Source of the DNA: a virus
Lineage: Duplodnaviria > Caudoviricetes
Direction: 5' to 3' (one strand)
IMG/VR virus record: IMGVR_UViG_3300043077_000092
DNA: 64,000 nucleotides
Made by a program: the position numbers and the translations under genes
The notes under the pieces: generated by a model
What the model was told of the DNA's origin: nothing
Databases searched by the model: none
What the model saw: the letters and a program-made list of their open reading frames with translations, nothing else
Shown here: positions 11,442 to 61,064 of the stretch, piece by piece
Layout: every line of letters starts with the position of its first letter
Position numbering within the stretch: position 1 is the stretch's first letter

Positions 11442-11448
11442 TATATTA
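11442..11448 (+). promoter_or_regulatory. Early-type promoter motif TATATTA upstream of peptide unit 1
   Basis: Same heptamer recurs at about 9 operon starts; resembles phiKZ/AR9 early promoter core. Confidence 0.6.
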
Positions 11449-11500
11449 GATATGAGTAAGCAAAGAAAGATTGGCTTACCAAGAAAGGAGGTGAATCCTC

Positions 11501-11707
11501 ATGGCAAACCAAAAAGGGTTTGGTAACACGGCATCATTACCGTGTTACCAACCAGTCAACACCCAACCTAGTTGGGTACATGGATATCCGAGCACCAATC
11601 GGACGTTCATGGATGAGTACGAATCACATCGTGCTCATGTTAATGACAACCCTGAGATGTTTGCACGAGACGTAAGTGTCATTATGAACTTACTGAGTGC
11701 AATGTAG
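11501..11707 (+). CDS. Small peptide family copy 1 (68 aa) in hairpin-rich mRNA
   Basis: SD AAAGGAGGTGA; shares F..YES.RA..DNPE.F.RD...I.N.LS with 13908..14117; own terminator. Confidence 0.75.
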   Translation: MANQKGFGNTASLPCYQPVNTQPSWVHGYPSTNRTFMDEYESHRAHVNDNPEMFARDVSVIMNLLSAM

Positions 11708-11723: not shown

Positions 11724-11766
11724 AAAAATATAGGGTGGATGAGTTATTGTCCACCCTATATTTTTT
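11724..11766 (+). terminator. Intrinsic terminator of peptide unit 1
   Basis: AAAAATATAGGGTGGA / TCCACCCTATATTTTT stem ending in T-tract. Confidence 0.85.
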
Positions 11767-11844
11767 GTGTAAAGCAACTTTGTTTATTATAAAGTTCATA
11801 GATAAAAAACAATGCTGATTTGACAATAGAGGAGGTGATTCCTT

Positions 11845-11998
11845 ATGGCAAACCAGCATTGTTGTGATAATGGTGGCATGTACCATTACCAAGTTCGTAC
11901 ATCTCCCAGTTATGGGAATCATAGATATTCGAGCACCACCGATCGAACATTCTTAGATAAATACGAATATGCGTCTTATCTTGAACGCATTACTGTAA
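11845..11998 (+). pseudogene. Small peptide family copy 2, frameshifted by ~47-nt internal deletion
   Basis: MANQ...DRTFLDKYE matches copy 1; the family C-terminus (MRLILNALL*, 11969-11998) lies in another frame; the track ORF reads on through the terminator to 12090. Confidence 0.7.
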
Positions 11999-12024
11999 TG
12001 TATCATGAATTTCACAAAATTAAG

Positions 12025-12060
12025 AATGGGTGGGTAACTTCGGTTCCCACCCATTTTTTT
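12025..12060 (+). terminator. Intrinsic terminator of peptide unit 2
   Basis: AATGGGTGGG..AAC-TTCG-GTT..CCCACCCATT followed by T-tract. Confidence 0.85.
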
Positions 12061-12102
12061 GTATTACTATTTCGGATTTCAACCTACTAGACAATCTGCA
12101 AA

Positions 12103-12165: not shown

Positions 12166-13866
12166 ATGAAATATCTTAAAGAGGCAGCGTTCAAAACAAA
12201 ATCGGTGTATATAATCGCCGTGAGTGTAGTAATCTCTATAGTATGTACTACTATAAATACCGAGATACTCATTTGGATTTCCAATGCAGTTACTAATTAT
12301 AAAGATCCAATGCATTGGGTTAATCTGGTTATAATCGGTTGTGTTTCTATAATAGTACTTGCTATAGTTAGACCATGGTTTAATAATATAGGAAACCATA
12401 AAGTCTACACTTACCTTTATAATCGACTTACTGACAAGTTGGTTTGCGCTGATTATGATTTGTACACGAAGTTCTCGCCGGGTGAAATAATCACTACAGC
12501 AGAAAGTTTATGGAACATAACTCGTCTAGTCATATTGTCACTTAATATGATTAGAAATCTGATTACATTCATCATTACTATGATCGCAATCGGATTAATT
12601 GCGCCTAAGGTAATCGTTCCTATTGGTATTGTCTATATAATAGCTGCAATTGTATTGTATATTGCAACTAAGAAATGGAACGAGGCTGACGAAGAGTTAG
12701 ATTCTAATAAGCGTAAACGTAATAGGGAACTTGACGAGATAATAAATGGATTTGCTGAGGTACGCTCATTTAGTCATGCAGTTGAGCATCATCAGAAGTC
12801 GATAACAAGCATGAACAACAGTGTTCTCTCAATGATTGGAAAGAGAATCAGGGTTGATTCATTCATAACTGTTTGGTATCAGGTAATTGATGGTGCAGTT
12901 ACAGTCGGCATATTGGCATACGTTATCCTTGCACTGAATAATGGTTCTATGACATCATCTGCAACGGCAGTGACTTTAGCAATGTATGCTTGGAGATTGA
13001 TTGAACCTATGGCTTCATTTGTTGACTCTCTTAGCGAAGTATCTTCATGTAAAGCACCGTTACCAAAATTTGAACGTGTGATGAATTATGAGAATACTGT
13101 ACCAACTGGTTCAATTGATCTTGAGTCATTTGACAGGGAAATTCAGTTCAACCATGTAGATTTCTCATACGATAAGTCTAGTTACGTATTGAACGATGTT
13201 TCCTTCAGTGTAAAGAAAGGAGAACATATCGGAATATGTGGACCAACAGGCGGAGGAAAATCTACGTTGTTAAAGCTTGTTCCAAAGTTCTATGATGTAA
13301 CTGGTGGTTCGATCACAATTGATGGGATTAACTTAAAGGATCTTACAACTACATCAGTTAGAGAGCATATCGGGATAGTACACCAGTCTCCATACATTTT
13401 TGATGGTTCTATTATGAGCAATATTAAGTATGCTGGTTTCAATAGAACGTCTAGTGGAAACTCAGTTACTGATGCAGAAGTTATTGATGCTTGTAAGAAA
13501 GCGTCAATCTATGATTTTGTAATGTCACTTCCAGATAAGTTCGAAACCCAGGTTGGACCAAGAGGTCTCAAACTTTCTGGTGGGCAAAAGCAAAGAATAG
13601 CATTAGCTCGTTTATTCATCAGTAATCCAGATATCATAATATTGGACGAAGCTACTTCAGCGTTGGATAATGAAACGGAGAGATTTGTACAAGATTCTCT
13701 AAATGCATTTAGAGATAAGACTATGATAGTTGTTGCTCATCGATTATCAACTATAAAGAATTCAGACAAGATTATTGTAATTGATGAGCATCGCGTTGTG
13801 GAACAAGGTACTCATGAGGAACTCATCGAGAAGAAAGGATTATATGAATCCATGTATAATAACTAA
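12166..13866 (+). CDS. ABC exporter half-transporter (fused TMD+NBD, MsbA/Sav1866-like)
   Basis: About 6 hydrophobic segments then Walker A GPTGGGKST, Q-loop, LSGGQKQR, Walker B IIILDEATSALD, H-loop AHRL; no N-terminal peptidase domain. Confidence 0.95.
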   Translation: MKYLKEAAFKTKSVYIIAVSVVISIVCTTINTEILIWISNAVTNYKDPMHWVNLVIIGCVSIIVLAIVRPWFNNIGNHKVYTYLYNRLTDKLVCADYDLYTKFSPGEIITTAESLWNITRLVILSLNMIRNLITFIITMIAIGLIAPKVIVPIGIVYIIAAIVLYIATKKWNEADEELDSNKRKRNRELDEIINGFAEVRSFSHAVEHHQKSITSMNNSVLSMIGKRIRVDSFITVWYQVIDGAVTVGILAYVILALNNGSMTSSATAVTLAMYAWRLIEPMASFVDSLSEVSSCKAPLPKFERVMNYENTVPTGSIDLESFDREIQFNHVDFSYDKSSYVLNDVSFSVKKGEHIGICGPTGGGKSTLLKLVPKFYDVTGGSITIDGINLKDLTTTSVREHIGIVHQSPYIFDGSIMSNIKYAGFNRTSSGNSVTDAEVIDACKKASIYDFVMSLPDKFETQVGPRGLKLSGGQKQRIALARLFISNPDIIILDEATSALDNETERFVQDSLNAFRDKTMIVVAHRLSTIKNSDKIIVIDEHRVVEQGTHEELIEKKGLYESMYNN

Positions 13867-13869
13867 AAA

Positions 13870-13929
13870 TAAACAAGTGATCAGTAAATTGAAAGGAGGT
13901 GATTCCTATGATTACTGATCACTTGTTTA
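13870..13929 (+). promoter_or_regulatory. Perfect 18-bp stem enclosing RBS and start codon of peptide copy 3
   Basis: TAAACAAGTGATCAGTAA (13870-13887) / TTACTGATCACTTGTTTA (13912-13929) flank AAAGGAGGTGATTCCT-ATG. Confidence 0.8.
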
Positions 13930-14117
13930 GTGATCCCAACAAGACAAGTCTTGTTGGGTCGGTTCCATACTCAATGAGTAATAGGAACCAGCGTCATGAT
14001 ACTCGGTCCCCAGATTTGAGTTTCATGACAGGGTATGAGTCTAATCGTGCCCGAATAAGTGATAATCCCGAAGCATTTTCTCGGGATATGCGTTTCATAC
14101 TAAACGCATTATCTTAA
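13908..14117 (+). CDS. Small peptide family copy 3 (69 aa, MITDHLFS...) in hairpin-rich mRNA
   Basis: ATG 13908 after AAAGGAGGTGA; paralogous to 11501..11707. Confidence 0.75.
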   Translation: MITDHLFSDPNKTSLVGSVPYSMSNRNQRHDTRSPDLSFMTGYESNRARISDNPEAFSRDMRFILNALS

Positions 14118-14139
14118 TGTATTAAGGTATATCACAATT

Positions 14140-14179
14140 TATAGGGGAGATGGTTTTATTCATCTCCCCTATATTTTTT
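14140..14179 (+). terminator. Intrinsic terminator of peptide unit 3
   Basis: TATAGGGGAGATG / CATCTCCCCTATA + T-tract. Confidence 0.85.
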
Positions 14180-14274
14180 GTATGAATTAACAACCCCTCG
14201 GAACATACAAAAAATGAAGCAGAACAAGATTTACACTCGTTCTGCTTCATTCACGCAGCGATATTTAACCGATC

Positions 14275-60599: not shown

Positions 60600-61064
60600 T
60601 TATTCCTCCTTTTTATCTTCACCTTCATTTTTAGGGACTTCCAGTAACTTATCTATGAAGTACTGAATATCGTTCTCACAATCACGGTGAGTTTTATTAT
60701 AGTTATCTCTTATAAGAGAAATGTCGGCATTGACTTTGTATTCAGTTTCGGGACTGATGATAGTTAATTCATACTTGTGCAAATCAATGCCAACTTTTGT
60801 GCAATATTTTTCCATGGTCTGATATATCTTTTCCACAACGTACTCGTAATGGAAATCACAGTCAGCTTTTGCAAAAACGAAACATGCATAAAAATACTTC
60901 TCCAAAATGTCGACGAGTTCTCCTTCATAATCATCGAGCACATTGAAATTTCCAGTACCATCATCCTGAAATGTGATTTCTGGACACCAGTGCTGTTTGA
61001 TCCATTCGGCTGCCCTCTCAGCCAGTTCTCCAATGTTAGCGTATGCCTCGATTAGATTTTTCAT
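60600..61064 (-). CDS. Hypothetical protein
   Basis: 154 aa, SD GAGGAG. Confidence 0.7.
   Translation of the reverse strand: MKNLIEAYANIGELAERAAEWIKQHWCPEITFQDDGTGNFNVLDDYEGELVDILEKYFYACFVFAKADCDFHYEYVVEKIYQTMEKYCTKVGIDLHKYELTIISPETEYKVNADISLIRDNYNKTHRDCENDIQYFIDKLLEVPKNEGEDKKEE

What the first reader, a model, noticed from the sequence alone, without database searches (positions are those of the whole stretch)
13930..14135. Coding sequence tiled end-to-end by hairpins: dual RNA/peptide code
Seen in copy 3: consecutive stems 13935-58, 13961-89, 13993-14029, 14031-52, 14065-87, 14088-109 and 14110-29, with 14059-64/14130-35 closing a multiloop. Copy 1 has positionally equivalent stems of different sequence: 11520-51 (12 bp perfect), 11561-77, 11579-611, 11613-38, 11641-84. 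Copy 2 has 11868-88, 11904-17, 11928-47. I saw no such density in neighbouring genes. Inference: the RNA itself is functional (decoy or antitoxin mimic, or a nuclease-resistant message), or the variable N-half of the peptide is shaped by RNA structure.
Basis: seen in the sequence. Interest (0 to 1): 0.75.

Follow-up and report, generated by a model that had tools for sequence, protein, structure and literature searches.

The report
Hairpin-armoured early mini-genes of jumbo phage
An uncultured giant phage carries seven scattered copies of an undescribed tiny gene whose messenger RNA folds into back-to-back hairpins while still coding for a conserved mini-protein; the folding most likely protects and doses the message rather than being a second, independent RNA function.

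Summary
The hairpins are real. All listed stems fold as stated. The copy-3 coding sequence is 7-9 SD more stable than protein-preserving recodings; ordinary genes average about -1.

The unit is one of seven dispersed copies in a 220-kb AR9/PBS1-like phage. I examined 13 more members from related contigs, and all 19 intact ones are over-folded (z -2.7 to -9.8). Two core hairpins show compensatory changes, and folding favours the sense strand.

The peptide is also selected: core pN/pS is 0.08-0.5. It has a disordered N-half plus an amphipathic helix-turn-helix with no known family. Fourteen of 19 members have their own AR9-type early promoter; the other five end early operons.

So the double constraint is confirmed, but an independent RNA function is not supported. 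The fold is carried by synonymous choices, no conserved single-stranded motif was seen, and long-dead copies (including frameshifted copy 2) have lost body structure. Best reading: a nuclease-resistant, translation-dosed early message for a host-binding mini-protein whose target is unknown.

This scan noted the same architecture in other jumbo phages (e1-5655876, possibly the same family; not checked by me). No expression data could be obtained.

The parts
13870..13929 (+). Copy 3 5' clamp: perfect 18-bp stem (13870-87 with 13912-29) enclosing the SD (13892-13902) and ATG (13908); starts 4 nt after the ABC gene stop
   Evidence: (I4); opening energy of the ribosome site 24 kcal/mol
13908..14117 (+). 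Copy 3 ORF, 69 aa; variable N-half, conserved 31-aa core from 14022
13933..14135 (+). Consecutive hairpins over the CDS and 3' UTR; 14031-52 and 14088-109 are the two positionally conserved, co-varying stems
14139..14180 (+). Intrinsic terminator (GC stem plus U tract) of copy 3
   Evidence: (I7)
11442..11456 (+). Early-type promoter TATATTA and predicted +1 G of copy 1
   Evidence: sequence against the AR9 consensus (PMC5312081); start site inferred, not mapped
11456..11479 (+). Copy 1 5'-terminal hairpin (GTAAGC/GCTTAC)
11501..11707 (+). Copy 1 ORF, 68 aa, hairpin-tiled
11724..11765 (+). Copy 1 terminator, 16-bp perfect stem
   Evidence: I13
11808..12061 (+). Copy 2, pseudogene: clamp 11808-63 and terminator kept; 47-nt deletion between 11968 and 11969 shifts the frame, which then runs through the terminator without a stop; the old C-terminus survives out of frame at 11969-11998
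12166..13866 (+). ABC exporter gene (566 aa, membrane plus ATPase domain, no peptidase domain) with its own TATATTA promoter at 12103-09; copy 3 is its probable operon tail. Neighbour, not shown to be part of the system

Best explanation
Each unit is a short early gene of an AR9/PBS1-like jumbo phage. The virion RNA polymerase transcribes it from a TATATTA promoter, or as the tail of an early operon as for copy 3 (promoter motif shown, activity inferred). The ~300-nt transcript folds locally into a 5' hairpin or clamp, short hairpins along the whole ORF and a terminator, leaving single-stranded runs of only 6-14 nt (predicted; selection on the fold shown). This shields the message from single-strand-specific endonucleases and from 5' and 3' exonucleases while host mRNA is declining, and the clamp limits how often ribosomes load (inferred). 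The functional output is the 52-106 aa protein: a disordered, fast-evolving N-half and a neutral-to-acidic amphipathic helix-turn-helix (selection shown, fold predicted), most likely a binding module acting on a host protein in takeover or counter-defence (inferred, target unknown). The family evolves by birth and death; a copy that loses its peptide later loses its body structure.
For: Peptide selection: codon-position conservation 0.73/0.82/0.56; core pN/pS 0.08-0.19 in five closer pairs and 0.3-0.5 in four more distant ones. Fold selection: all 19 intact members z -2.7 to -9.8 against protein-fixed recoding; 6 pairs with double changes in each of two core hairpins, covariation score above all 500 shuffles and twice any slid register; sense strand favoured in 15 of 19. 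Fold tied to coding: copy 2 body z -1.7 and two ORF-less relics -0.2 and -1.3, against -7.6 and -8.8 for copies 1 and 3. Promoter: TATATTA (one TGTATTA) 6-7 nt before a 5' hairpin in 14 of 19, matching AR9 AAATATATATTAT-N6-G (PMC5312081). Background: host mRNA falls during AR9 infection (PMC5312081); RNase Y prefers AU-rich low-structure sites (bioRxiv 10.1101/2023.03.12.532304); a ribosome on a strong SD blocks RNase J1 (PMC5737220). Orthologues c7 and L020 are about 42% identical while both neighbours are 88-89%.
Against: Other early genes of the same phage are not folded like this, so general stability needs do not explain why only this family is. Clamped copies bury the ribosome site by 23-28 kcal/mol, more than stability requires. 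Copy 2's weak fold is partly due to the deletion itself, and only three dead copies are old enough to be informative. One element at the syntenic site in L008 is strongly folded (z -8) around an unrelated ORF. Members are related, so the covariation and strand statistics are not independent tests.
Confidence: 0.55

Rival explanations
1. The fold is mainly a translation switch: the message is stored silent and opened by a trigger (a ribosome terminating on the upstream gene, a phage or host protein, or the peptide itself), as in type I toxin mRNAs.
For: Four different clamp sequences (copy 3/L007, c4, L012/L017, L010) pair the UTR with the first six codons at 23-28 kcal/mol; in three lineages the clamp starts within about 10 nt of an upstream stop; copies 1, c5 and c6 have competing leader pairings.
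Against: Thirteen of 19 members have no long clamp and, where computed (11 of them), only 6-15 kcal/mol to open; L010 has a clamp but no upstream ORF; hairpins in the distal CDS are local and do not reach the SD; no conserved antisense late promoter.
Confidence: 0.17
2. True dual function: besides coding, the RNA itself acts as a decoy or sponge for a host RNA-binding protein or defence nuclease, or base-pairs in trans.
For: Double changes in the core hairpin alter amino acids to keep pairing (for example G-C replacing A-U in copy 3); three frameshifted alleles among about 25 units, two of them with lesions that spare the stems; a strongly folded non-homologous element occupies copy 3's slot in L008.
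Against: No Rfam match; no conserved unpaired sequence seen; no antisense match in the phage genome beyond chance; old dead copies lose structure; two of the three frameshifts are deletions between short direct repeats, as replication slippage would give, and the third is a one-base loss in a pyrimidine run that may be an assembly error.
Confidence: 0.13
3. The peptides are substrates of the neighbouring ABC exporter (signalling or RiPP-like precursors), and the fold only ensures abundance.
For: An ABC gene lies next to a member in the window, L007/L022, L008 and L015; variable N-half with constant C-half resembles precursor peptides.
Against: Most members are not beside an ABC gene; L012 has another gene in that slot; the ABC has no C39 peptidase domain; no conserved Cys or double-glycine leader; the slot is a general accessory-gene site.
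Confidence: 0.08
4. The palindromes act in DNA (mobility or recombination signals) or are neutral by-products.
For: Copies are dispersed on both strands between structural genes.
Against: Folding favours the sense strand and G-U pairs are tolerated; no shared terminal repeats or target duplications seen; synonymous sites carry the fold.
Confidence: 0.04

Closest known systems
Early, virion-RNAP-transcribed genes of Bacillus phage AR9 and phiKZ-related phages (PMC5312081)
   Same: Same promoter motif and spacing; early units set among late structural genes; RNAP beta subunit hits SA1, PBS1 and relatives.
   Different: The passages of the AR9 and phiKZ transcriptome papers I searched mention no hairpin-tiled mini-gene family; no homologue in 50,697 GenBank phage records.
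Type I toxin mRNAs such as H. pylori aapA3 (PMC6733600)
   Same: Small ORF in a highly folded mRNA with SD-sequestering stems in the UTR and ORF.
   Different: Peptide has no transmembrane segment; no conserved antisense RNA promoter found; multi-copy in a lytic-type jumbo phage.
Dual-function RNAs: C. perfringens VR-RNA/Hyp7 (386 nt, 72 aa), B. subtilis SR1/SR1P (PMC12612679)
   Same: Similar size; conserved ORF inside a structured transcript in Bacillota.
   Different: Those base-pair with target mRNAs; no seed or target was found here, and there is no sequence similarity by Rfam.
PeSL cassettes of T4-type phages (PMC2839356)
   Same: Dispersed repeats of early promoter plus stem-loop around small non-core ORFs.
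   Different: PeSL is a sigma70-like promoter and terminator cassette flanking unrelated ORFs; here the repeat is the whole gene, the promoter is phage-polymerase type and the CDS itself is folded.
B. subtilis hbs mRNA, stabilised by a strong SD (PMC5737220)
   Same: Strong SD and structured 5' region protecting a small-protein mRNA.
   Different: Protection there is at the ends; here structure covers the whole ORF.

Membership tests
AR9/phiKZ-type early gene | TATATTA(T)-N6-purine promoter upstream | tested here: met
   14 of 19 directly (one as TGTATTA); copy 3 through the ABC gene promoter at 12103-09 (PMC5312081)
AR9/phiKZ-type early gene | Transcribed in the first minutes without protein synthesis | not testable with these tools
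Type I toxin-antitoxin | Small hydrophobic membrane peptide | tested here: not met
   maximum 19-residue Kyte-Doolittle mean 0.09-1.08; no Pfam hit
Type I toxin-antitoxin | Cis-antisense antitoxin RNA with its own promoter | tested here: inconclusive
   late-promoter motif on the opposite strand in 6 of 19 at unrelated positions, near chance; host-sigma promoters not assessed
Type I toxin-antitoxin | SD sequestered in the full-length mRNA | tested here: inconclusive
   strong in 6 clamped members, modest in the others computed
Dual-function sRNA (VR-RNA, SR1, RNAIII type) | Selected small ORF inside the RNA | tested here: met
   pN/pS below 1
Dual-function sRNA (VR-RNA, SR1, RNAIII type) | Translation-independent base-pairing to target mRNAs | tested here: inconclusive
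   no conserved unpaired seed seen, no phage target; host genome unknown
Any Rfam RNA family | Match at gathering score | tested here: not met
   0 matches in the window
PeSL cassette | Promoter and stem-loop cassette reused around unrelated ORFs | tested here: not met
   the leader motif occurs only with family members or distant paralogues; pattern hits elsewhere were unrelated
ABC-exported RiPP or bacteriocin precursor | Double-glycine leader and C39 peptidase-ABC | tested here: not met
   ABC has only ABC_membrane and ABC_tran; no such leader in alignment A4
ABC-exported RiPP or bacteriocin precursor | Modifying enzymes in the cluster | tested here: inconclusive
   none among the Pfam-annotated neighbours; whole genome not surveyed

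The most novel reading that the evidence does not exclude
The family encodes an early counter-defence or takeover peptide whose mRNA is armoured against the very RNases it must outlast (toxin endoribonucleases, Cas13 or type III collateral nucleases), and the folded RNA may also bind such a factor itself: one molecule serving as both protected message and decoy, reused as a general design by jumbo phages.
Probability: 0.15. Interest if true: 0.82.

Novelty: new variant of a known kind. Interest (0 to 1): 0.52.

Why it matters
It is a clean natural case of overlapping RNA-structure and protein selection across a whole ORF, in a gene family with no database name. Jumbo phages shield their DNA but their transcripts remain exposed to RNA-targeting defences (PMC13282480), and the function of their small early genes is an open question. 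These units give a simple test (recode against start-codon knockout) of whether phages armour selected messages, and a set of natural designs for long-lived mRNA in Bacillota. Without a target or expression data it remains a well-defined candidate, not a new mechanism.

Tried and rejected
- Rfam: no match. Pfam, PHROGs, PADLOC: none, or a single-member weak hit.
- PDB by sequence: only E above 0.7. Fold searches: best Z 2.9 in PDB, nothing in BFVD, no usable Atlas hit; a two-helix model is too small for these to be informative.
- Longer proteins carrying the core: none found, weak evidence. P0012 (fungal repeat) and P0019 (TPR) were judged spurious.
- IMG/VR, GTDB and GenBank phage scans gave no confirmed members. 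Leader-pattern hits were chance.
- Homodimer prediction returned no answer; not used as evidence.
- Chimallin was not identified: only one candidate protein was checked, so nucleus formation is undetermined.
- Synonymous-site conservation did not correlate with pairing (rho 0.17, p 0.38).
- timed out. The first pair count had helix 2 off by one and was redone. The last block had an offset error and was ignored. One search stopped before its last two members.

Full report
Setting. The window is part of a 220,062-nt phage record. Its 1576-aa RNA polymerase beta subunit is closest to those of Staphylococcus phages SA1/PB50 and Bacillus phage PBS1 at about 31-33% identity, so this is an AR9/PBS1-like jumbo phage, probably of a Bacillota host (inferred). 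The finding lies in an accessory slot between a 3913-aa gene (the gene at this position in relatives hits a phage lysozyme domain) and the polymerase block.

Observation. Whole units give z -13.3, -11.4 and -5.2 against dinucleotide shuffles. The decisive control keeps the protein fixed: the copy-3 CDS is z -9.2 against synonymous permutation and -7.8 against GC-matched recoding; copy 1 is about -6. About 60 other gene starts average -1.1 to -1.6, with two unexplained outliers. A genome-wide folding scan ranks these units on top.

Family. The genome holds seven units: six intact ORFs of 65-71 aa and copy 2. A profile search of 1.84 billion proteins found 17 credible members and nothing named; they sit on contigs of related phages up to 238 kb. 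I analysed 19 intact members with DNA. Each has a strong SD, a variable N-half, a 31-aa core (F-x3-Y-E-x2-R-A-x-V-x2-N/D-P-x2-F-x2-D-x-R-x-I/L-x2-A-L) and a terminator. AlphaFold gives a disordered N-half and two helices, 37-48 and 54-68, with no informative fold match and no membrane segment.

Selection on the peptide. Conservation by codon position is 0.73/0.82/0.56. Core pN/pS is 0.08-0.19 in five closer pairs and 0.3-0.5 in four more distant ones; the N-half is 0.25-0.68 in seven pairs, with two close pairs too sparse to judge. The peptide is real in the evolutionary sense. It also evolves fast: syntenic orthologues c7 and L020 share about 42% of residues while their neighbours share 88-89%.

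Selection on the RNA. All 19 CDSs are over-folded against protein-fixed recoding (z -2.7 to -9.8, mean -5.3), in both halves. Recoded sequences fold no better than codon-order shuffles, so the amino-acid sequence is not, overall, dictated by the fold. Two core hairpins keep their register: 77% of cells paired and six pairs each with double changes; the third shifts register and is 52% paired. Some double changes alter residues, so local constraint on the peptide exists. The sense strand folds better than expected in 15 of 19, which points to RNA rather than DNA. These statistics are inflated by relatedness.

5' ends. Fourteen members have TATATTA (one TGTATTA) followed 6-7 nt later by a hairpin whose sequence varies; AR9's early consensus is AAATATATATTAT-N6-G, read by the virion polymerase (PMC5312081). 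Five, including copy 3, lack a promoter, follow an early gene and start with a long clamp that pairs the UTR with the first codons, with the SD in the loop; L010 has both promoter and clamp. Opening the ribosome site costs 23-28 kcal/mol in clamped members and 6-15 in the 11 others computed. How clamped messages are opened is not resolved: upstream ribosomes, co-transcriptional loading or a trigger are all possible.

Dead copies. Copy 2 has a 47-nt deletion; the shifted frame runs through the terminator, and its body folds at only z -1.7. Two ORF-less relics in L010 keep clamp and terminator but not body structure (z -0.2, -1.3). L018 and L022 are recent frameshifts nearly identical to intact alleles and say nothing. 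So structure tracks coding capacity, which favours a role in service of the message. The exception is a strongly folded element at copy 3's position in L008 with an unrelated 38-aa ORF.

Mechanism. Shown: both constraints, promoter motif, dispersal, decay of dead copies. Inferred: early transcription; protection from decay, since RNase Y favours AU-rich low-structure sites (bioRxiv 10.1101/2023.03.12.532304), a strong SD blocks RNase J1 (PMC5737220) and host mRNA falls in AR9 infection; and a host-binding role for the helix-turn-helix. Unexplained: why only this family among early genes is so folded. One testable answer is that its product must keep being made when RNA-targeting defences are active (PMC13282480).

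Comparison. It works like a stabilised small-protein mRNA and partly like a type I toxin message, but fails the toxin test (no membrane peptide). It is not a PeSL cassette and not a shown dual-function sRNA. The ABC exporter neighbours a member in several phage loci but not most members and lacks a peptidase domain. Earlier notes of this scan describe folded early mini-messengers in other jumbo phages; I could not check them, and sequence look-ups did not link them to this family.

Verdict. Observation confirmed; interpretation partly supported; undescribed family, new variant of a known kind; interest 0.52.

Noticed in passing
L008:3695-3990: At copy 3's position behind the ABC gene: clamp, SD-like loop and ATG, then an unrelated 38-aa ORF and two near-perfect long hairpins (z -8), one containing the family leader motif. 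Candidate non-coding derivative.
   Followed up: partly
L010:125-313 and 459-647: Two 62-aa genes with the same leader hairpin and folded CDS (z about -5); weak profile match to the core (hhalign probability 52%); absent from this genome. Probably a distant subfamily.
   Followed up: partly
L010:715-915 and 935-1110: Relic units keeping the 5' clamp and terminator but lacking the start codon and body structure.
   Followed up: partly
G000:C1:130675 (+) and 138672 (+), outside the window: Two non-family gene starts with folding z -5.6 and -6.6 against recoding; unexplained.
   Followed up: no
window 12166-13866: Phage-borne ABC exporter half-transporter with an early-type promoter, 59-98% identical in related phages; cargo unknown.
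   Followed up: partly
L012:5165-5959 and L015:526-1278: A 250-264 aa family of unknown function replaces or accompanies the ABC gene in the same accessory slot.
   Followed up: no
L015:5865, L015:3200, L016:5900, L019:9920, L020:9885, L021:9895 (approximate): A second motif, TATGATCC or a near variant, lies about 20-25 nt upstream of TATATTA in several relatives; possible upstream promoter element.
   Followed up: no
window 14213-14251: Separate 16-bp inverted repeat just past copy 3's terminator, probably the terminator of the convergent gene.
   Followed up: no
G000:C1:201000-201600, 159000-159200, 64400-64700, 60600-60900: Other strongly folding windows in the genome scan, not members of this family; some may correspond to RNAs reported in earlier notes.
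   Followed up: no
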